Below, piece after piece: positions 37,453-59,297 of a stretch of DNA of 64,000 bases. How positions within the stretch are numbered: the first letter of the stretch is position 1; every line of letters begins with the position of its first letter. The DNA is from Bacilli bacterium (lineage in GTDB: Bacteria > Bacillota_I > Bacilli_A > RF39 > UBA660). The DNA lies in the NCBI GenBank assembly GCA_900753325.1, contig CAADYO010000009.1, forward strand, positions 2,333-66,332, written 5' to 3'. The notes beneath the pieces were generated by a model, which was given only the letters and a program-made list of their open reading frames with translations, was not told the DNA's origin and ran no database searches. The position numbers and the translations under genes were made by a program.

Positions 37453-38358
37453 TTACCTCCCTGATTCTAAGTTCATTATTTCTAGTAGTCTATTTAAATC
37501 ATTACCGTTAACAAAACTAATTTCAATTTTATTATTTTTAATTTTTACTTTAGTTCCTAATTTTTCGCAAAGTTCCTCTTGCAAGTATTCATATTCTGGA
37601 ATAATCTTCTTTGGTTTTCTTTTTATCTCATGAACACGTAAAAACTTTTCATTTGATTGAGTCATATTTTCTAACTCGCGGACACTTAAACCTTCTTCTA
37701 CAACTTTTTTAGCAAGGTCTATCTGCTGTTCTGTATTTTCTAGTTTGCTTATTATTCTAGCATGTCCCATACTTAAACTTTTATTGCTAAGACTTTTTTG
37801 TACCTCTTCTGGTAGAGTTAATAAACCTAGCATGTTGGTTATATGGCTTCTACTTTTTCCTAATCTATTTGCTAATTCTTCTTGAGTTAGGGATAATGAT
37901 TCTAATAATTTTTTATAGGCAGTTGCTTCTTCTATGGCATTTAGATCTTCTCTTTGAAGATTCTCTAATAAAGCAATTTCCATCATTTCATCATCTGAAA
38001 AGTCACGTATAATAGCCGGTATTTCATCTAATCCAGCTATTTTAGAAGCTTTTACTCTTCTTTCTCCAGCAATTATTTCATAACCTTTAATACTTTTTTT
38101 TATGATTATTGGTTGGAATACTCCATGTTCCTTTATTGATGCTGCTAGTTCATTTAAAGCTGTTTCATTAAATACTTTTCTAGGCTGATATGGATTACTT
38201 CTTAATTCAGAAATTTTTACTAGTTTTATTTCTTCTTTTGGGGTTTCTGTTAAAATTTTTTCTTCTACTTTGCTATAATCAATTGGTTCATTGTAGAATA
38301 GTTCTTCTAATCCTCTTCCTAGTGCTCTTCTTTTATTATTGTTCTCCATTTCTTTCAA
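37453..38358 (-). CDS. parB: Chromosome partitioning protein ParB/Spo0J (parS-binding paralog)
   Basis: 301 aa; GERRVKA arginine patch. HTH recognition region RLGKSRSHITNMLGLL is Spo0J-type (R...N), in contrast to the Noc-type paralog at 39216. Confidence 0.85.
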   Translation of the reverse strand: MKEMENNNKRRALGRGLEELFYNEPIDYSKVEEKILTETPKEEIKLVKISELRSNPYQPRKVFNETALNELAASIKEHGVFQPIIIKKSIKGYEIIAGERRVKASKIAGLDEIPAIIRDFSDDEMMEIALLENLQREDLNAIEEATAYKKLLESLSLTQEELANRLGKSRSHITNMLGLLTLPEEVQKSLSNKSLSMGHARIISKLENTEQQIDLAKKVVEEGLSVRELENMTQSNEKFLRVHEIKRKPKKIIPEYEYLQEELCEKLGTKVKIKNNKIEISFVNGNDLNRLLEIMNLESGR

Positions 38359-39191: not shown

Positions 39192-39217
39192 TTAAAAAAA
39201 AGTAGATTTCTCTACTT
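39192..39217 (-). terminator. Intrinsic terminator after noc-like gene
   Basis: AAGTAGA-tttc-TCTACTT is a perfect 7-bp stem with T-run on the minus strand. It overlaps the stop codon. Confidence 0.5.
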
Positions 39218-40559
39218 ATTTATCTATTTTAATTATTACTTGATAAGCTGTTGCAAAATCCATTTCATCAAACGTTACTTTTCCACCATGATTTTCAATA
39301 TCTTTAACAACTTCACGAATTTTGTTAATAATTTGAGGCAAATCATAATTTCCAGTTGGAGCTTCAACTTGTGGGTTTGGAATATTTAATATACTACTTT
39401 GTTGTGTCGCTGCTGGTTGTTGAGTTGAAGAAATATTTTGTGGTAAATCTGTTGCTTTAATATTTGGCATATTAAAGTAATCCTTGATTGACTCTTCTTC
39501 TGCAGTAGCATCTCCCTTAACAATTGCTTCTGCTGGTGTTAAGTATTTTTGTTCTGATGGTTCTTGAGACTTTTGCTCATTGTTTTGACTAACAACTGGC
39601 GTAATATTTAATAAACTATCTAAGTCAGCTATTGGTTCATTTTGAATTGGTTTTATATCCATAGCATTTTCCTTTATTGTACTAACATCTACTGGTTGTA
39701 CTTCTACTTCATTATAATAAGAATCTTTTGGTTCTTCTACTGCTTCCTTATCTATTTCTCCGTAATTAATAAATTTTTGAACTGTTTGATTATTATTTTC
39801 AGTTGGTGGAGAAATTGTTACTTGTCCGTAATTCATAGGATTTGATGGCATAGCCGATGGTGTTGTTGAAGTACCAATAGTGGCATTTGCCGCAACTGAT
39901 GGTATTGTTTCACTTGCTTGGGTCATTTGAAATCCTTGTGATTCTCTTTTTGGACTTATTTTAGCTATTTCTTCCTCTACTGCTCTTACTGTCATTTTAT
40001 TTGTTATTATTTTCTTTAATAATTCTTTTTGTTGCTTAGCGTCTGGTAAATTTAGTAAGGCTCTTGCATGTCGTTCTGATATTTGTTCTTTTAAAAGTGA
40101 ATCTTGGACTTCATCTGGTAAGGCTAACAAACGTAATTTATTAGCAACAGCTGACTGACTCTTACCCATCGTTTTAGCTAGTTCATCTTGTGTCATTTGG
40201 TCAAGCTCCAAGATCTTTTGATATGTTCTAGCTTCTTCAATTGGATTTAGATTTTTTCTTTGAAGATTTTCTAGTAGAGCAACTTTAGAACTTTCTTTGT
40301 CATCAAGATCTCTTATTATTGCAGGGATTTTTGTCATACCAGCTAATGCTGAAGCTTTATAGCGACGTTCTCCGGCAATTATTTCATATTTACCATTAAC
40401 ACGTCTAACAATAATTGGTTGAATTACACCATGTTCTTTTATTGATAAAGCGAGTTCTTTTAAAGCTCTTTCATCAAATACTTCTCTTGGCTGGAAACGA
40501 TTTGGAATTATATCATCTAAGTATAAGTATACAACTTCATCTTTAGTTTCTGTATTCAT
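39216..40559 (-). CDS. noc: Noc-like ParB-family protein (NBS-binding paralog) with long low-complexity C-terminal extension
   Basis: 447 aa. The N-terminal about 255 aa align closely with B. subtilis Noc (IIPNRFQPREVFDE..ALKELALSIKEHGVIQPIIVR). The recognition helix GKSQSAVANKLRLL is Noc-type (Q..K), unlike Spo0J R..N. It sits in the conserved noc slot between rsmG and parA. There is no N-terminal amphipathic membrane peptide. Residues about 260-400 are Q/P/S/T/N-rich. Confidence 0.75.
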   Translation of the reverse strand: MNTETKDEVVYLYLDDIIPNRFQPREVFDERALKELALSIKEHGVIQPIIVRRVNGKYEIIAGERRYKASALAGMTKIPAIIRDLDDKESSKVALLENLQRKNLNPIEEARTYQKILELDQMTQDELAKTMGKSQSAVANKLRLLALPDEVQDSLLKEQISERHARALLNLPDAKQQKELLKKIITNKMTVRAVEEEIAKISPKRESQGFQMTQASETIPSVAANATIGTSTTPSAMPSNPMNYGQVTISPPTENNNQTVQKFINYGEIDKEAVEEPKDSYYNEVEVQPVDVSTIKENAMDIKPIQNEPIADLDSLLNITPVVSQNNEQKSQEPSEQKYLTPAEAIVKGDATAEEESIKDYFNMPNIKATDLPQNISSTQQPAATQQSSILNIPNPQVEAPTGNYDLPQIINKIREVVKDIENHGGKVTFDEMDFATAYQVIIKIDK

Positions 40560-46934: not shown

Positions 46935-47065
46935 ACAGTTTCCACAGATATGTGGAATATTAAAATAAGGTGTGTGGAATAAAAATTGTGGAAAATGTGG
47001 AAAAGTTATTTTTATTATTTTATATCAATAGTTTTATTTGTGGAAAAAATTGTGGATTGTGTGTT
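46935..47065. promoter_or_regulatory. oriC part 1: DnaA-box cluster and dnaA promoter region
   Basis: At least six 9-mers within 0-2 mismatches of TTATCCACA/TGTGGATAA (TTTCCACAG, TGTGGAATA x2, TGTGGAAAA x3, TGTGGATTG) in 130 bp upstream of dnaA. Confidence 0.7.
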
Positions 47066-49943: not shown

Positions 49944-50390
49944 ATGAAATACGAATTTAGTAAAGGAACATTAGCAATTGTTCCAAATGAAAATGAAAGT
50001 AGTTTGGTCTATGAAGACGACGATAGATATATCATTGATCAAACACCATTTAAAATAATGGAGGAGAGCTGTAAGTATTTTGGTAGTACTTATGCTGGAC
50101 GAAAAGATAGTGCACGATCTATTTTAGGAGCTGAATATAAGGTACCTATTATTGTAGAAGATAGTGATAATTTAATTGTTTTTCCAACAACTTCGCCACA
50201 GTCTACTGATTGTACATGGGTATCATTGAAAAGAATTAAATCGTTTGTAAAAATTGACTCAAGTAATACAAAAATAATTTTTGATAATGGTAAAGAGATT
50301 ATTGTTCCATGTTCATATAGAACAATAGAAAACCAAGTTTCGAGGGCTTCTAGATTAGATTTAATTATGCGTAGTAGAAAAAATCGTTAA
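49944..50390 (+). CDS. comK: ComK-family competence transcription factor
   Basis: 148 aa; aligns along its whole length with B. subtilis ComK. LAIVPNEN / ATIAVLPEE; SCKYFGSTYAGRK / SCRFFGSSYAGRK; VPIIVEDSDNLIVFPTTSPQSTDCTWVS / PPIMVDPSNQIFLFPTLSSTRPQCGWIS; FDNGKEIIVPCSYRTIENQVSRASRL / FSNGKTMELPISYNSFENQVYRTAWL. Confidence 0.8.
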   Translation: MKYEFSKGTLAIVPNENESSLVYEDDDRYIIDQTPFKIMEESCKYFGSTYAGRKDSARSILGAEYKVPIIVEDSDNLIVFPTTSPQSTDCTWVSLKRIKSFVKIDSSNTKIIFDNGKEIIVPCSYRTIENQVSRASRLDLIMRSRKNR

Positions 50391-53588: not shown

Positions 53589-56039
53589 ATGGATAGATTA
53601 GAAAAAAATAATATTGTAAAAGAAGTCCAAGACTCTTTTTTAGAGTATTCAATGAGTGTTATTGTTGCTCGTGCACTTCCTGATTTAAGAGATGGTTTAA
53701 AGCCAGTTCACAGAAGAATTCTTTATTCGATGTATGAATCTGGATATACACCTGATAAGCCTCATAAGAAGAGTGCAAGAATTGTTGGAGATGTTATGGG
53801 TAAATATCATCCTCATGGTGATTCTAGTATTTATGAGGCTATGGTTAGAATGGCTCAGGACTTTTCTTATCGTTATATGTTAGTCGATGGTCATGGTAAT
53901 TTTGGTAATATTGAAGGTTATGGTGCTGCTGCAATGCGTTATACAGAGTCTAGGCTTTCAAAAATTTCCTTGGAATTACTTAGAAATATAAATAAAAATA
54001 CTGTTGATTTTAGTCCTAACTTTGATGAAAGTGAAAGAGAACCAGATGTTTTACCTTCACGCTTTCCTAATATTTTAGTTAATGGTACAACGGGTATTGC
54101 TGTTGGTATGGCTACTAATATTCCTCCACATAATTTAAGCGAAGTAATAGACGGTTGTGTTGCTTATATTGATAACCATGATATTACTTTAGATGAATTA
54201 ATGCAGTATATTAAAGGTCCTGATTTTCCAACTGGAGCAACAATTTTGGGTAATAGTGGCATTCGTAAGGCATATGAAACTGGACGTGGTACGATTACTA
54301 TTAGAAGTAAGGCTCGAATTGAAGAAAAAGATGGAAAACATTATATTATTATTGATGAAGTTCCTTATGGTGTTAATACCTTAGAATTAAAGAATAAAGT
54401 AGCTGAACTTGTTCATAATAAGACAATTGAGGGTATTGCTGATTATCATTCTGATTTAAAAGATGGTATTAAAATTACAATTACTTTGAAAAGAGATGCT
54501 AATGCACAAGTTATTTTAAATAAGTTATATAAGCATACAGCTTTTCAAACTACTTATGGAATAATTTTCTTAATGTTGGATCAAGGTGTTCCTAAGACAT
54601 TAGGTTTAAAAGATATTATTGTTAAGTATATTGATTTTCAAAAGGAAGTTATTATTCGTCGAACTAAATATGATTTAGATGTTGCTGAAAAGAGAGTTCA
54701 TATTTTAGAGGGCTTAAAGATAGCTTTGGATAATATTGATGCTGTTATTAAACTAATTCGTGCGGCTAAATCTGATGATGAAGCTAGAACTGGTTTAATG
54801 AATAATTTTAAATTAACTGAAATTCAGGCTAATGCTATATTAGAAATGAAATTACGCCGTTTAACCGGCTTAGAACGTGAAAAGATAGAAAATGAATTAA
54901 ATGACTTATTGAAATTAATTGAAGAATTACGTGGCATTTTAGCTAGTGATGATAAGGTCTTAGAAGTAATTAAAAATGAACTTCTTGAAATTAAGGATAA
55001 ATATGGTGATGAACGCCGTACTAATATTGATATGACGGCCATTGAATATATTGAAGATGAATCTTTAATTCCAAATGAAGATGTAATAATTACTTTGACT
55101 AGAAATGGTTATATTAAGAGACTTAGAACTGATACTTACAGGACTCAAAATCGTGGTGGTGTAGGTGTTAATGGTATGACTACAAATGAAGAGGATTTTG
55201 TTGAACAGTTAGTTTCTATGAAAACACATGATTATATTTTATTCTTCTCAAACAAGGGTAGAGTTTATAGAATGAAAGGTTATGAAGTACCTGAGTTTTC
55301 AAGACAATCTAAAGGTTTACCTATCATCAATTTACTACAATTAGATAAAAATGAGAACATTAGTTCGATTGTTGAAATTTCTGCTGATAGTAGTGAGATT
55401 AAATATTTGGTATTTACTACTAGAAATGGAATAGTTAAGAGAACTAATATTTCTGAATTTGATAGTATAAGAAAATCTGGTAAGATTGCTATTGTTTTAA
55501 AGGAAAATGATGAGTTAATATCTGTAAGAAAGACTTGTGGAAATGAGGAAATTGCTATTGGTGCTAACAATGGTAGAATGGTGAGATTCTCTGAAGATGA
55601 AATAAGACCTATGGGTAGAAGCAGTTCTGGTGTTAAGGGTATTGATCTTGATGATAGTTTTGTAGTTGGTGCTGAAGTTGTAATACCTGGTCAAACTATT
55701 CTTATTGTTACCGATAATGGTTATGGTAAGAAAACTGTTATTGATGAATATAGGTTAACTCATAGGGGCAGTAAGGGTGTTAAAGCTCTTAATATTACAG
55801 AAAAAAATGGTACTATGGTTGCACTAAAGTGTATTGATGATAAAGAATATGATGTAATTATTGTTACTGATAATGGTACTGTTATGAAAATGCCATTAGA
55901 TCAAGTTTCTACTTTAAAACGTGCGACTCAGGGTGTAAGACTTATTAATTTAAAAAATAATGAAAAAGTATCAACTGTTGCAATAGTTGAAAAGGAAACT
56001 ACTGGTGAACTTGTTGATGATTTAAATAAAGAAAGTTAA
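53589..56039 (+). CDS. gyrA: DNA gyrase subunit A
   Basis: 816 aa; active-site region AAMRYTE, GyrA box QRGGVG-like (NRGGVGV), C-terminal beta-pinwheel repeats. Confidence 0.95.
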
Positions 56040-56047
56040 AATTATTT

Positions 56048-56076
56048 AAGGCGACTTTAATTGTCGTCTTTTTTTG
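56048..56076 (+). terminator. Intrinsic terminator of gyrA
   Basis: AAGGCGAC-tttaatt-GTCGTCTT followed by TTTTTTG. Confidence 0.6.
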
Positions 56077-56296
56077 TAAACTTTTATAACTTTTATGTAA
56101 AATTTTACTTGTGGAAAAAAATTTTTTGTTTTTAATATTTTTTTATTAAATAATCTTATTACTAATTATTTGTTTAAAATATGAATATATAATTTAATTC
56201 TATTTTATATATGTTATTGATTGTGAATATTTTATATATTTTTTATTTATTAAAATATAATTTGTACTGTTAACTTACTTGATTTTAATTCAATTT

Positions 56297-56312
56297 ATTT
56301 CCTGGGAAATAA
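56297..56312. promoter_or_regulatory. Noc-binding site (NBS) variant, TATTTCCTGGGAAATA
   Basis: One central substitution (C to T) relative to the 16-bp NBS palindrome TATTTCCCGGGAAATA. Confidence 0.55.
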
Positions 56313-56362
56313 TTTGTCACTATATTTTATTATCAGTTCTACTTATTTTTTTTATAGTTTTA

Positions 56363-56378
56363 TGTTTCACGTGAAACA
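56363..56378. promoter_or_regulatory. parS: parS site, perfect 16-bp palindrome TGTTTCACGTGAAACA
   Basis: Exact match to the Firmicute parS consensus tGTTtCACGTGAAACa; flanked A/T, which extends the palindrome to 18 bp. Confidence 0.8.
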
Positions 56379-56483
56379 TTGTATTATTTTCATACTTGGA
56401 TTTTTTTTGCTCTAAAAAAACATTACATTTTTACAGAATTATATTTTATGTATGTTTATTTTAGTTATATTCATCCAAAAATT

Positions 56484-56499
56484 ATTTCCCGGGAAATAA
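56484..56499. promoter_or_regulatory. Noc-binding site (NBS), perfect TATTTCCCGGGAAATA within a 28-bp perfect palindrome
   Basis: AAAAATTATTTCCCGGGAAATAATTTTT (56477-56504). CCCGGG is very rare in a 27% GC genome. Confidence 0.75.
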
Positions 56500-56556
56500 T
56501 TTTTAATGTATTTTATGTCTATTTTACTCATTTGTAATTTTTGCCTATTTAATTAA

Positions 56557-56572
56557 TATATCACGTGAAATA
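56557..56572. promoter_or_regulatory. Chimeric parS/NBS-like palindromic site TATATCACGTGAAATA
   Basis: The central CACGTG core is parS-type. Outer positions 2 and 15 (A and T) are NBS-type. Position 4 (A) matches neither consensus. Confidence 0.45.
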
Positions 56573-56776
56573 TTGCAATGGTGTATGTGGTCATTTTATT
56601 TATTTTATAATGATAGATTTTTGTTTACGATAATCGCATAGTGTTATATAAGTTTTTTTGCATAAGTATTTTACGAAAATATATCTAATATTTTATATTC
56701 TTATAAAAATCTAAATTTTGATAATATTATTTTAAAGTTATTTTCTTGGAGATACTTTTAGTAATGCATGTGCTTA

Positions 56777-56792
56777 TGTTTCACGTGAAACA
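56777..56792. promoter_or_regulatory. parS: parS site, perfect TGTTTCACGTGAAACA
   Basis: Identical 16-mer to the other two intergenic parS copies. Confidence 0.8.
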
Positions 56793-56886
56793 TATAATTT
56801 ACTTTGATTTATTATTATTGATCTTTATTTTATGTTTTAACTAATATTTTATAATATTTAAATATTTGATTAATTTTTTATAAAAT

Positions 56887-56902
56887 TATTTCCCGGGAAA
56901 TA
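56887..56902. promoter_or_regulatory. Noc-binding site (NBS), perfect TATTTCCCGGGAAATA
   Basis: Embedded in the 24-bp palindrome AAATTATTTCCCGGGAAATAATTT (56883-56906). Confidence 0.75.
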
Positions 56903-56936
56903 ATTTATTATGGCAAGTATCTTTAATATATATTAA

Positions 56937-56952
56937 TGTTTCACGTGAAACA
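56937..56952. promoter_or_regulatory. parS: parS site, perfect TGTTTCACGTGAAACA, 11 bp upstream of the ffs -35
   Basis: The 20-bp palindrome AATGTTTCACGTGAAACATT (56935-56954) sits immediately upstream of the ffs promoter TTTACA-17-TAGAAT. Confidence 0.8.
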
Positions 56953-56963
56953 TTAAAATTTCA

Positions 56964-56992
56964 TTTACAAAAAGTTACATATATATTAGAAT
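56964..56992 (+). promoter_or_regulatory. Sigma-A promoter of ffs (SRP RNA)
   Basis: -35 TTTACA (56964-56969), 17-bp spacer, -10 TAGAAT (56987-56992); transcription start about 6-8 nt downstream. Confidence 0.6.
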
Positions 56993-56998
56993 AATATC

Positions 56999-57079
56999 GT
57001 GCAATGAAAGCGGTGGAAACAGGTCAGGATTGGAAAATAGCAGCCTTAACATTAAACTTTCATGTGCACTTTTTATTTT
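56999..57079 (+). ncRNA. ffs: Small (4.5S-type) signal recognition particle RNA
   Basis: ACAGGUCAGG-AUU-GGAA-AAU-AGCAGCC reproduces the universally conserved SRP RNA domain IV (helix 8): symmetric loop AGG / AGCAGCC closed by a 3-bp stem and GGAA tetraloop. The terminal stem GUGCAAUGAAAG / CUUUCAUGUGCAC closes the hairpin. A U-tract (TTTTTATTTT, 57070-57079) follows. The ORF-track N-terminus of the tadA ORF (57004) overlaps this RNA and is spurious. Confidence 0.65.
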
Positions 57080-57090
57080 GGGTGATTATT

Positions 57091-57590: not shown

Positions 57591-59297
57591 ATGTATCATG
57601 CTTTATATAGAAAATATAGACCTCAAACATTTGATGATGTTGTAGGACAGAACTCTATTGTTACAACGCTTAAAAATTCGATAATCAATAAGACTTTTTC
57701 ACATGCTTATATGTTTTTTGGACCGAGAGGTACTGGAAAAACAACAGTTTCTAAAATTTTTGCTAGATCTATTAATTGTTTGAGTCCAGTTGATGGCTGT
57801 GCTTGTGGAAAATGTGATGCTTGTCTTCATTCTTTTGAAAAAGAATGTGTTGATATTATTGAAATAGACGCTGCTAGTAATAATGGTGTTGACGAAATAC
57901 GTGAACTTAAGAACAAGATTTCCTTAGTACCAGCTGAACTAAAATATAAAGTGTATATAATAGATGAAGTTCATATGCTATCTATTGGTGCTTTTAATGC
58001 TTTGCTTAAAACTTTAGAAGAGCCGCCTGAGCATGCTGTCTTTATTTTGGCTACTACTGATCCACAGAAAGTGCCAGAAACTATTATTTCTCGTTGTCAG
58101 TGTTTTTCTTTTAAAAGAATTTCTGAAAACTCTATTGTGGAAAGATTAAAAAATATTACCAATAAAGAAAATATTGCTATTGATGATAGTGTCTTAAATG
58201 ATATTGCTAATTTTTCTGATGGTGGGTTACGTGATGCATTAGGTTTATTAGATAAACTTAGTTCGTACACTAATAAGAAAGTTACTGCTGATTCTTTTGC
58301 TGAACTTAATGGTACTATTACAAATGCTGAACTGGAAAAATTTTCCAATTTGGTTTTTACTGGTGATATTTCTAGTATATTATTAAGCATTGAAACTTTT
58401 AATGACTCTGGTAAAAATTTAATTCAGGTTATTACTCAATTAATGAATTATTTACGCAATTTACTATTTTTATATTATACAAAGGGAGTTGAATTGATAG
58501 CTCCAATTGATCAAGTTATTAATTTGACTAATGTTATCAATAATAAGTTATTTGATATTAAAAAGACTGGTAATCCACGTGTATATATTGAAATGTTATT
58601 GATTGAATATGTGGAAAAAAATATTTTAAAAAGTAGTAATAAAATTATTTCCCGGGAAATAATTTCAAACGAATCTGTTGAAAAAGAAGAAACTAAAGTA
58701 CCACAAACAAATGTTTGCTATAGTCAAGACGATACTGTAGTACAGGAAACTAATAATGATTCAAAAAAGAATGTTTTGAGTGAAAACGTTGATATGCATG
58801 GTAGTTCTTCTAATGAGTGCGTTATTTTAAATATTAATGAAATTATGAAGGCTCGTGTTAATAATATTATGGCTGAAGCAAATAAAAAACTATTAAATGA
58901 TGTTATTAATAGTATTGGTATATTTAATGACTATACTTTTGATACTGAGATTGGCTTTGTTGCTTGTGCTTTATTGGATGCTAAAATACGTGCTGTAAGT
59001 AATAAGGGTATTATAATTAGTTATGAATATGATTCTATTGTGAAACAAAATATTTTGAATTTGAAAAAAATAACGGAAGTTTATAATAAGTTAACTAATT
59101 CTAATTATTCATTTGCTATTATCTCTGATAGTGATTGGAATACTGCAAAAGCTGATTATATTAAAACTATAAAATCTGGTGGTACTTATGAAATTATGAT
59201 TGAACCAGCTGAAGAAATATTGGAAGTGGATAAAAAAAATGATATAATATCTAATAGTGCAATTGAACTATTTGGTGATATTGTTGAAATTGATTAA
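57591..59297 (+). CDS. dnaX: DNA polymerase III subunit tau/gamma (DnaX)
   Basis: Start at MYHALYRKYRPQTFDDVVGQ; Walker A GPRGTGKTT; Zn module CxxC-CxxC; SRC motif. Confidence 0.9.
   Translation: MYHALYRKYRPQTFDDVVGQNSIVTTLKNSIINKTFSHAYMFFGPRGTGKTTVSKIFARSINCLSPVDGCACGKCDACLHSFEKECVDIIEIDAASNNGVDEIRELKNKISLVPAELKYKVYIIDEVHMLSIGAFNALLKTLEEPPEHAVFILATTDPQKVPETIISRCQCFSFKRISENSIVERLKNITNKENIAIDDSVLNDIANFSDGGLRDALGLLDKLSSYTNKKVTADSFAELNGTITNAELEKFSNLVFTGDISSILLSIETFNDSGKNLIQVITQLMNYLRNLLFLYYTKGVELIAPIDQVINLTNVINNKLFDIKKTGNPRVYIEMLLIEYVEKNILKSSNKIISREIISNESVEKEETKVPQTNVCYSQDDTVVQETNNDSKKNVLSENVDMHGSSSNECVILNINEIMKARVNNIMAEANKKLLNDVINSIGIFNDYTFDTEIGFVACALLDAKIRAVSNKGIIISYEYDSIVKQNILNLKKITEVYNKLTNSNYSFAIISDSDWNTAKADYIKTIKSGGTYEIMIEPAEEILEVDKKNDIISNSAIELFGDIVEID
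58646..58661. promoter_or_regulatory. Noc-binding site (NBS), perfect TATTTCCCGGGAAATA, inside the dnaX coding sequence
   Basis: Embedded in AAAATTATTTCCCGGGAAATAATTT (58641-58665). It encodes KIISREIIS of DnaX. Confidence 0.65.

What the first reader, a model, noticed from the sequence alone, without database searches (positions are those of the whole stretch)
56557..56572. Hybrid parS/NBS site inside the array
TATATCACGTGAAATA keeps the parS-type CACGTG core, where NBS would have CCCGGG. It carries NBS-type bases at the outer specificity positions 2 and 15 (A/T instead of G/C). Position 4 matches neither consensus.

This is an evolutionary or functional intermediate between the two site classes, located between bona fide copies of each. 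It could be bound weakly by both paralogs, or be a decaying copy.
Basis: seen in the sequence. Interest (0 to 1): 0.5.

Follow-up and report, generated by a model that had tools for sequence, protein, structure and literature searches.

The report
Decayed parS copy in a parS/NBS array
The "hybrid" 16-mer is real, but it is most likely one worn-out copy of the chromosome-segregation site parS inside a redundant array, not a functional or evolutionary bridge between two site classes, so on its own it is ordinary.

Summary
TATATCACGTGAAATA is at 56557-56572 exactly as described. It is related to parS by descent rather than by chance: TCACGTGA occurs 4 times in 64 kb, all in this array, against 0.16 expected.

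The 960-bp gap between gyrA and the SRP RNA gene holds four "NBS, spacer, parS" dyad modules. The hybrid fills the parS slot of module B and has parS-type flanks (A..T). Eight comparable modules, in this genome and in sister species, hold a parS there.

In 80 related species (uncultured gut Bacilli, "Mycoplasma sp. CAG:877" group), about 290 parS-like and 250 NBS-like sites include none within one mismatch of an A1/A6 hybrid. G2/C15 is essentially invariant in intact parS copies. Clade-derived weight matrices score the hybrid 1.0 bit (parS) and 3.7 bits (NBS), against about 31 for perfect sites.

The hybrid is fixed in 18 conspecific sequences. It varies at the background rate, and one strain has also lost the core (CATGTG).

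The local ParB (R-M-T-G) and Noc-like protein (Q-K-A-R) have canonical specificity residues, and the hybrid defeats one base contact of each.

Verdict: a species-specific degenerate parS, probably close to non-functional. The clade-wide mixed parS/NBS array around it is the more interesting object.

The parts
56557..56572 (.). The 'hybrid' 16-mer TATATCACGTGAAATA. Interpreted as a degenerate parS (G2>A, T4>A, C15>T) in the parS slot of dyad module B.
   Evidence: sequence; aligns to the parS column of 8 other modules; parS-type flanks attaa|..|ttg; PWM 1.0 and 3.7 bits; L092 allele CATGTG.
56483..56498 (.). Perfect NBS (TATTTCCCGGGAAATA), the partner of the hybrid in dyad module B, 74 bp upstream.
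56296..56311 (.). NBS with one mismatch (CCTGGG core), module A. It is polymorphic within the species: T56303C restores a perfect NBS in L097, and C56301T degrades it further in L091.
56363..56378 (.). Perfect parS, module A.
56739..56754 (.). Decayed NBS relic TATTTTCTTGGAGATA (4 mismatches) in the NBS slot of module D. It shows that slots of either class decay in this array.
   Evidence: aligns to the NBS column; NBS PWM 2.4 bits; two further polymorphisms.
56777..56792 (.). Perfect parS, module D.
56887..56902 (.). Perfect NBS, module C. It is broken to CCCGAG by G56896A in 4 conspecific contigs.
56937..56952 (.). Perfect parS, module C, just upstream of the SRP RNA promoter-like site.
37453..38358 (-). 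ParB/Spo0J (301 aa), downstream of ParA/Soj. The specificity residues (Caulobacter numbering 173/179/184/201) are R-M-T-G, the parS type.
   Evidence: best solved relative is B. subtilis Spo0J 6sdk at 221.5 bits, against Noc at 168. Residue rules come from PMC7383237.
39216..40559 (-). Noc-like ParB paralog (447 aa) in the rsmG-noc-parA-parB gene order. Its specificity residues are Q-K-A-R, the NBS type. It has a short N-terminus and a linker of about 200 aa that looks low-complexity by eye (no composition measure was run).
   Evidence: TIGR04285 scores 297.3 bits against a cut-off of 315. (translation); best solved relative is Noc 7nfu at 217.8 bits. Q-K-x-R in 114 of 116 close homologs.
53589..56039 (+). 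gyrA, the left border of the non-coding gap that holds the array. A terminator-like hairpin lies at 56048-56070.
56990..57085 (+). Small SRP RNA gene, the right border of the gap.
   Evidence: RF00169, 51.7 bits. (promoter-like site at 56964-56992).

Best explanation
The 16-mer is a degenerate parS. It is one copy of the ParB loading site in a redundant array of four NBS-spacer-parS modules.

It acquired two G:C>A:T transitions, at the symmetric positions 2 and 15, plus T4>A. Position 2/15 is Jalal's 'position 1', the guanine read by ParB Arg173. Losing it in both half-sites should strongly reduce ParB nucleation.

The site keeps A/T at positions 7/10 (Jalal's 'position 6'), where the Noc-type Arg201 needs C:G. 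It is therefore not a good NBS either.

Three perfect parS and two to three good NBS lie within 400 bp, and ParB-family clamps slide away from their loading sites. Loss of this one copy should therefore cost little, and it now drifts.

Shown here: the sequence, the slot, the flanks, absence from relatives, the background polymorphism rate, and the specificity residues of the two proteins. Inferred: the low affinity for both proteins and the lack of function.
For: 1. Slot. MAFFT alignments of the window's four modules, and of module B with modules from L018, L015, L009, L012 and L014, place the hybrid in the column that holds TGTTTCACGTG[A/G]AACA in the 8 other modules of the cross-species alignment. 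Each module has its own NBS 36-74 bp upstream.

2. Flanks. In 80 species the base next to a perfect parS is A in 275 of 282 half-sites. Next to a perfect NBS it is T in 306 of 382, followed by AAA. The hybrid has A on both sides. Its flanks attaa|..|ttg equal those of parS 56937 and parS 56363.

3. No such class exists. No site within 1 mismatch of TATTTCACGTGAAATA or TGTTTCCCGGGAAACA occurs in about 1.1 Mb from 80 species. Among roughly 570 CACGTG-core half-sites none has a TATTT or TATAT arm.

4. Tolerated variation in parS copies is confined to positions 1/16 and 5/12. A2 or T15 occurs in 4 of 292 parS-like sites, always on one side only and with a damaged core.

5. PWM scores are 1.0 bit (parS) and 3.7 bits (NBS), against 30.8 and 31.3 for perfect sites and at least 11.9 for the weakest sites with 2 or fewer mismatches. 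Two random window positions beat the hybrid on the parS matrix.

6. Within the species there are 58 variable columns in 950 bp. Perfect sites show 1 in 80 (one-sided Fisher p=0.04). The hybrid shows 1 in 16, which equals background, and that change destroys the CG core in L092.

7. The local proteins carry canonical specificity residues: R..G for ParB and Q-K-A-R for the Noc-like protein. PMC7383237 shows that R173 reads G1, Q173 reads A1 and R201 reads C6.
Against: No binding data exist for this species. The KD values for the matching synthetic site ('site12', TATTTCACGTGAAATA) are only in a heat-map figure that I could not read.

The two outer changes hit exactly the symmetric specificity positions while the 8-bp core TCACGTGA stays intact. 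Under random decay that is somewhat unlikely: my own estimate is roughly 1 in 15 for that particular pair among six G:C positions, and 1 in 5 for any symmetric pair.

The site is fixed in all 18 conspecific sequences, although their divergence is too low for this to mean constraint.

The orthologous position could not be identified in any sister species, because array interiors do not align between species. The ancestral state is therefore inferred from paralogous and homologous modules and was not observed directly.
Confidence: 0.75

Rival explanations
1. It is a functional low-affinity or dual-specificity site. Both ParB and the Noc-like protein nucleate on it weakly, and selection keeps it, for example to tune loading or to couple the two clamps.
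For: The palindromic core is intact and the outer changes are symmetric. The site is fixed in all 18 conspecific sequences. Engineered ParB variants can prefer sites with mixed parS/NBS features (PMC7383237).
Against: There is no counterpart in 80 related species that all keep mixed arrays. The polymorphism rate equals background, and one strain carries a core-destroying allele. The PWM scores are at background level for both classes. The local proteins have canonical R..G and Q-K-A-R residues, not the Q..G combination that preferred hybrid sites in PMC7383237. The extra T4>A mismatch fits neither consensus.
Confidence: 0.12
2. It is a degenerate NBS rather than a degenerate parS, derived by C7>A, G10>T and T4>A.
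For: It is also 3 substitutions from NBS. Its NBS PWM score is slightly higher than its parS score, 3.7 against 1.0 bits.
Against: It occupies the parS slot, with its own perfect NBS partner 74 bp upstream. The flanks are parS-type on both sides, and the AAAT/ATTT extension typical of NBS is missing. This path needs two symmetric transversions, whereas the parS path needs two G:C>A:T transitions, the usual direction in a 24% G+C spacer (base composition, the direction argument is inference).
Confidence: 0.05
3. It is the cognate site of a different protein. This could be a third ParB-family paralog with mixed (Q173/G201-like) specificity, or an unrelated regulator that reads CACGTG.
For: [quoted passage not shown] I infer, but could not confirm, that this is the A1/A6 site. 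Only 64 kb of the genome could be inspected.
Against: Only two ParB-family ORFs are in the window. There is a single copy of the motif in the window and none in 1.1 Mb of related genomes. No promoter-like signal stands out at the site.
Confidence: 0.05
4. It is a surviving relic of the ancient transition from parS to NBS, that is, a true evolutionary intermediate.
For: Only its formal position, half-way between the two consensus sequences.
Against: noc is confined to Firmicutes and is treated as an old duplication of parB (PMC7383237). This site is restricted to one species, array interiors turn over so fast that they do not align between species with 94-95% identical GyrA, and non-coding AT-rich DNA cannot retain a neutral 16-mer over that timescale (inference).
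Confidence: 0.02

Closest known systems
Chromosomal parS (ParB/Spo0J nucleation site, consensus TGTTNCACGTGAAACA), including the weak or degenerate copies known from model bacteria
   Same: It is a 16-bp palindrome with a CACGTG core and origin-proximal (about 10 kb from dnaA). It has parS-type flanks and lies in the parS slot of a repeated module next to perfect parS copies.
   Different: It lacks the G/C at positions 2/15, which is read by ParB Arg173 (PMC7383237) and is practically invariant in about 290 parS-like copies of the clade. It also has an extra T4>A change.
NBS, the Noc-binding site (TATTTCCCGGGAAATA)
   Same: It has A/T at positions 2/15, the base read by Noc Gln (PMC7383237), and it lies among genuine NBS copies.
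   Different: The core is CACGTG instead of CCCGGG, so the Arg201-type contact to C6/G-6 is lost in both halves. It lacks the AAAT..ATTT extension that flanks NBS in this clade.
Synthetic 'site12' (TATTTCACGTGAAATA) of Jalal et al. 2020, Cell Reports (PMC7383237)
   Same: It has the same A1/A6 combination at the two specificity positions. The natural site differs from site12 only at position 4.
   Different: Site12 is an engineered probe. The paper reports that Q..G variants (QKAG, QTKG, QKKG) switched to a site with mixed parS/NBS features, which I infer to be site12, not wild-type ParB or the QKKR variant. No protein with that residue combination was found here.
ParSh, the half-parS/half-NBS chimera of the ParSite imaging system (PMC11798528)
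   Same: It is an artificial 'hybrid' of the same two site classes.
   Different: ParSh joins one intact parS half to one intact NBS-like half and is read by a ParB/ParB-mutant heterodimer. Here each half-site is itself mixed, so neither monomer type is satisfied.

Membership tests
parS (ParB nucleation site) | 16-bp inverted repeat with a central CACGTG | tested here: met
   the TCACGTGA core is intact.
parS (ParB nucleation site) | G at position 2 and C at position 15 (guanine 1, contacted by ParB Arg173) | tested here: not met
   A and T. A2 or T15 occurs in only 4 of 292 parS-like sites of 80 species, never on both sides. The contact rule comes from PMC7383237.
parS (ParB nucleation site) | Origin-proximal location, close to other parS copies | tested here: met
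   dnaA is at 46970 and the GC-skew minimum is near 46 kb; three perfect parS lie within 400 bp.
parS (ParB nucleation site) | Descent from a parS copy (homologous slot and flanks) | tested here: met
parS (ParB nucleation site) | Specific binding and CTP-dependent loading of ParB | not testable with these tools
   This needs BLI, EMSA or ChIP. The clade PWM score of 1.0 bit predicts failure.
NBS (Noc-binding site) | Central CCCGGG (C at position 7 and G at position 10, read by the Arg201-equivalent of Noc) | tested here: not met
   A and T; all 383 CCCGGG-core half-sites carry a TATTT arm, and no CACGTG core does.
NBS (Noc-binding site) | A at position 2 and T at position 15 | tested here: met
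NBS (Noc-binding site) | Clade-specific extended flanks AAAT|site|ATTT | tested here: not met
   the hybrid has attaa|..|ttgca.
Distinct third site class (A1/A6) with its own binding protein | Recurrence of the motif in the genome or in relatives | tested here: not met
   there is a single copy in the window and none within 1 mismatch in 80 species.
Distinct third site class (A1/A6) with its own binding protein | A ParB-family protein with Q173-type and G201-type residues | tested here: inconclusive
   none in the window or among 120 close Noc-like homologs. The rest of the genome was not available.

The most novel reading that the evidence does not exclude
The site is a naturally occurring A1/A6 site that both the ParB and the Noc-like clamp of this bacterium can load on at low efficiency. 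It would then be a natural example of a dual-read centromere-like site that couples the two CTP-switch systems within one array.
Probability: 0.08. Interest if true: 0.45.

Novelty: new member of a known kind. Interest (0 to 1): 0.18.

Why it matters
On its own the site matters little. It is one decayed copy in a redundant array, and its main use is as a natural negative control for ParB and Noc specificity. It is the natural counterpart, one base off, of the synthetic 'site12' of Jalal et al. 2020.

It does illustrate birth-and-death turnover of individual loading sites. Within the species other copies are being broken (G56896A) or repaired (T56303C).

What deserves attention is the context. 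An interleaved parS/NBS dyad array directly after gyrA is conserved in 56 of 58 related species. It is paired with a Noc-like protein that lacks the N-terminal region which carries the membrane-targeting helix in B. subtilis Noc. This suggests that Noc-type clamps have an origin-proximal role there, different from textbook nucleoid occlusion.

Tried and rejected
1. Population alleles in JGI metagenomes. The pattern CCTATTTAATTAA-N16-TTGCAATGG gave 0 hits. The species is present in ENA and Logan assemblies instead.

2. Orthologous position in sister species. A blastn of the gap against L009-L030 aligns only the two ends and the repeated modules. Array interiors are not collinear, so no true ortholog of the slot could be named.

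3. More conspecific diversity. The YbaB look-up added 9 new contigs (L089 being the same contig as L001). The BofA-like look-up returned the same 10 contigs and nothing new.

4. KD values for Jalal's site12 against wild-type ParB and PtoN12 (QKAR). Only oligonucleotide and plasmid tables are held as text. The numbers are in Fig. 3C.

5. Position-by-position data on parS tolerance in PMC5815017. None of the search terms matched anything in the main text.

6. A promoter, terminator or small-ORF explanation for the 16-mer. Promoter-like hits in the gap are no more frequent than in shuffles and none is centred on the site. The small ORFs are AT-rich noise.

7. A third ParB paralog in the window. 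None was found.

8. Rejected: chance occurrence, and a relic of the ancient parS-to-NBS transition.

Full report
**Observation.** The 16-mer TATATCACGTGAAATA is at 56557-56572.
- It is 3 mismatches from parS, TGTTTCACGTGAAACA, at positions 2, 4 and 15. It is 3 mismatches from NBS, TATTTCCCGGGAAATA, at positions 4, 7 and 10.
- It is not a chance match. TCACGTGA occurs four times in 64 kb (three parS and this site), against 0.16 expected from shuffles.
- Apart from this cluster and one NBS inside dnaX (58646), no parS- or NBS-like site with 2 or fewer mismatches exists in the window.

**Context.** The site lies in a 960-bp non-coding gap (24% G+C).
- The gap runs from gyrA (53589-56039, terminator-like hairpin at 56048-56070) to the small SRP RNA gene (56990-57085), which is followed by tadA and dnaX.
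- dnaA starts at 46970 and the cumulative GC skew turns near 46 kb, so the gap is about 10 kb from the origin.
- Upstream, in the order rsmG, noc-like, parA, parB, are two ParB-family genes and no third.
- The 301-aa protein matches B. subtilis Spo0J best (6sdk, 221.5 bits, against Noc at 168). At the four specificity positions defined for Caulobacter ParB (173/179/184/201) it carries R-M-T-G.
- The 447-aa protein matches Noc best (7nfu, 217.8 bits). It scores just under the NCBIfam Noc cut-off (297.3 against 315) and carries Q-K-A-R.
- Among its 120 closest homologs, 114 of 116 scorable proteins are Q-K-x-R.
- The organism is an uncultured gut member of the Bacilli, related to 'Mycoplasma sp. 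CAG:877'.

**Anatomy of the array.** Aligning the four stretches that contain sites shows that the gap is built from four copies of one module. The module is AAATTATTTCCCGGGAAATAATTT, a spacer of 20-58 bp (site starts 36-74 bp apart), then TTAATGTTTCACGTGAAACATTG.
- Module A: a 1-mismatch NBS (56296) plus parS (56363).
- Module B: a perfect NBS (56483) plus the hybrid (56557).
- Module D: a 4-mismatch NBS relic (56739, TATTTTCTTGGAGATA) plus parS (56777).
- Module C: NBS (56887) plus parS (56937).

The hybrid therefore sits in a parS slot with its own NBS partner. Slots of either class can be seen in various states of decay.

Aligning module B with modules from five sister species and with modules A and C gives the same picture. 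Eight of nine modules have TGTTTCACGTG[A/G]AACA in that column, and only module B has the hybrid.

The flanks agree with this.
- In 80 species the base adjoining a perfect parS is A in 275 of 282 half-sites.
- The base adjoining a perfect NBS is T in 306 of 382, followed by AAA.
- The hybrid has A on both sides. Its flanks (attaa|..|ttg) equal those of parS 56937 and parS 56363.
- The shortest path from parS is two G:C>A:T transitions (positions 2 and 15) plus T4>A. The path from NBS needs two transversions.

**Comparison across species.** A scan of species-representative genomes with GyrA returned 80 loci at 78-95% GyrA identity.
- Nearly all carry a mixed array after gyrA. Of 58 loci with at least 1 kb of downstream sequence, 56 have both parS and NBS within 2.6 kb.
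- By contrast, 463 kb of upstream sequence contain none.
- In about 1.1 Mb there is no site within one mismatch of the A1/A6 hybrid (TATTTCACGTGAAATA) or of the reciprocal G1/C6 hybrid.
- Of roughly 570 half-sites with a CACGTG core, none has a TATTT or TATAT arm. All 383 CCCGGG half-sites have TATTT.
- Variation among 292 parS-like sites is concentrated at positions 1/16 and 5/12.
- A2 or T15 occurs in four sites only, always on one side and with a damaged core, so these are evident wrecks.
- Weight matrices built from these sites score the hybrid 1.0 bit (parS) and 3.7 bits (NBS). Perfect sites score 30.8 and 31.3, and the weakest sites with 2 or fewer mismatches score at least 11.9. Two unrelated window positions outscore the hybrid on the parS matrix.
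- The hybrid is thus a one-off of this species and not a site class.

**Variation within the species.** Exact-protein look-ups gave 17 further contigs of the same species. L001 and L089 are the same contig.
- All contigs have the same 950-bp gap and all carry the hybrid. One contig (L092) has C56564T, turning the core into CATGTG.
- Across the gap, 58 of 950 columns vary.
- The five perfect sites show 1 variable column in 80 bp (one-sided Fisher p=0.04 against the rest).
- The three imperfect sites show 5 in 48.
- The hybrid alone shows 1 in 16, which equals background.
- The power of this test is low, but nothing suggests constraint on the hybrid.
- Other copies are turning over. G56896A breaks the NBS of module C in four contigs, and T56303C makes the module A NBS perfect in L097.

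**Mechanistic inference.** Jalal et al. 2020 (PMC7383237) established the following.
- ParB Arg173 hydrogen-bonds guanine 1, which is position 2 here.
- The Noc-type Gln at that position reads adenine 1.
- The Noc-type Arg201 reads the C:G pair at position 6, which is positions 7/10 here. It needs a permissive Lys at 179 or 184.
- Their synthetic 'site12' is TATTTCACGTGAAATA, one base away from the natural site.
- Variants that switched to a site with mixed parS/NBS features had Q173 with G201 (QKAG, QTKG, QKKG). I infer that this site is site12.
- Here ParB is R..G and the Noc-like protein is Q-K-A-R, the residue set of their PtoN12.

Each protein should therefore lose one of its two specificity contacts in both half-sites, and T4>A adds a further mismatch in the left half.

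I infer that neither protein nucleates there efficiently. I also infer that the loss is tolerated because three perfect parS and two to three good NBS lie within 400 bp and ParB-family CTP clamps slide from their loading sites. The sliding is general knowledge of the family, for example PMC7053999 and PMC8429893. Affinity was not measured, and the published KD values for site12 are only in a figure.

**Rivals.**
- A functional weak or dual site (0.12) is favoured only by the symmetry of the outer changes and the intact core. By my own estimate the exact pair 2/15 is about 1 in 15 among G:C positions, and any symmetric pair is about 1 in 5. Template-switch correction in palindromes could also symmetrise a single mutation (inference).
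- NBS ancestry (0.05) conflicts with the slot and the flanks.
- A third reader protein (0.05) lacks any recurrence of the motif or any candidate gene in the available data.
- An ancient parS-to-NBS relic (0.02) is incompatible with array interiors that no longer align even between species with 94-95% identical GyrA.

**Comparison with what is known, and novelty.**
- The site works like, and descends from, a parS. It fails the defining G2/C15 feature, so it should be filed as a degenerate parS relic rather than a functional parS. It also fails the defining core of NBS.
- It differs from the engineered ParSh chimera, which joins two intact but different half-sites.
- Degenerate centromere-site copies are a known kind, so the finding itself is ordinary (interest 0.18).

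**What is not ordinary is the surrounding array.**
- It is clade-wide and interleaved. Seven loci (L024, L044, L050, L051, L055, L068, L075) carry strict tandem repeats of NBS-parS dyads with periods of about 56-125 bp.
- The Noc-like protein consistently lacks the roughly 20-25 N-terminal residues that precede the conserved NRFQPR motif in solved Noc. From my own knowledge, that region carries the membrane-targeting helix in B. subtilis Noc.
- An NBS is embedded in a variable part of dnaX and is kept at the DNA level across species.
- Two full-text searches for comparable site architectures, one on Noc/parS arrays and one on weak or degenerate parS, did not turn up a description of such an arrangement. 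They were not exhaustive.

**What led nowhere.**
- The JGI metagenome pattern scan found nothing.
- A second exact-protein look-up returned the same contigs.
- The Caulobacter parS paper had no position-by-position data reachable by text search.
- Promoter, terminator and small-ORF scans gave no alternative function for the 16-mer.

Noticed in passing
window 56296-56952; L009-L088 downstream of gyrA: The interleaved NBS/parS array directly after gyrA is conserved across the clade. Of 58 species loci, 56 have both site types within 2.6 kb, while 463 kb of upstream sequence have none. The distance from an NBS to the next parS is 20-70 bp in 95 of 147 cases. Seven species carry strict tandem dyad repeats (L068, L051, L055, L050, L075, L024, L044). 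Two full-text searches did not find this architecture described.
   Followed up: partly
window 39216-40559 (-): The Noc-like paralog is 447 aa long, with a linker of about 200 aa between the DNA-binding domain and the C-terminal domain; it looks low-complexity by eye, and no composition measure was run. Only 19 residues precede NRFQPR. All 120 close homologs have similarly short N-termini (14-20 aa, one with 32), so the region that carries the membrane-targeting helix in B. subtilis Noc appears to be absent. Its TIGR04285 score is just under the cut-off (297.3 against 315).
   Followed up: partly
window 58646-58661 (inside dnaX, 57591-59297): A perfect NBS lies inside the dnaX coding sequence, with its extended flanks, and encodes IISREII in a variable part of DnaX. 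The same 22-mer is kept at the corresponding place in many related species although the neighbouring codons differ. This suggests selection on the DNA site.
   Followed up: partly
window 56896, 56303, 56301; L001, L005-L007, L091, L097: Site turnover is ongoing within the species. G56896A breaks the module C NBS (CCCGAG) in four contigs. T56303C turns the 1-mismatch NBS of module A into a perfect one in L097. C56301T degrades it further in L091.
   Followed up: yes
L056 8490-9130; L057 8570-8826: Two related species have tandem arrays of perfect NBS only, with periods of about 71-75 bp and no parS within 1 mismatch in the stretch held. It is unknown whether they have lost ParB/parS or keep parS elsewhere.
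   Followed up: no
L086 11600-11615: TGTTTCATGGGAAATA is a left-parS/right-NBS chimera with one extra mismatch. It is the only other site equidistant from both consensus sequences in 80 species. It lies about 3.2 kb after gyrA, roughly where other species have the dnaX NBS.
   Followed up: no
window 49944-50390 (+): A ComK-family gene (PF06338) sits between dnaN and recF in the origin region. One conspecific contig (L002) has a different gene call there and a fragmented gyrB.
   Followed up: no
80 species loci, flanks of NBS: In this clade the NBS is effectively a 24-bp palindrome, AAAATTATTTCCCGGGAAATAATTTT. Flank positions -2 to -4 are A in 81-91% of half-sites, and flank position -1 is T in 80%. 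This is longer than the 14-16 bp usually quoted for B. subtilis.
   Followed up: partly
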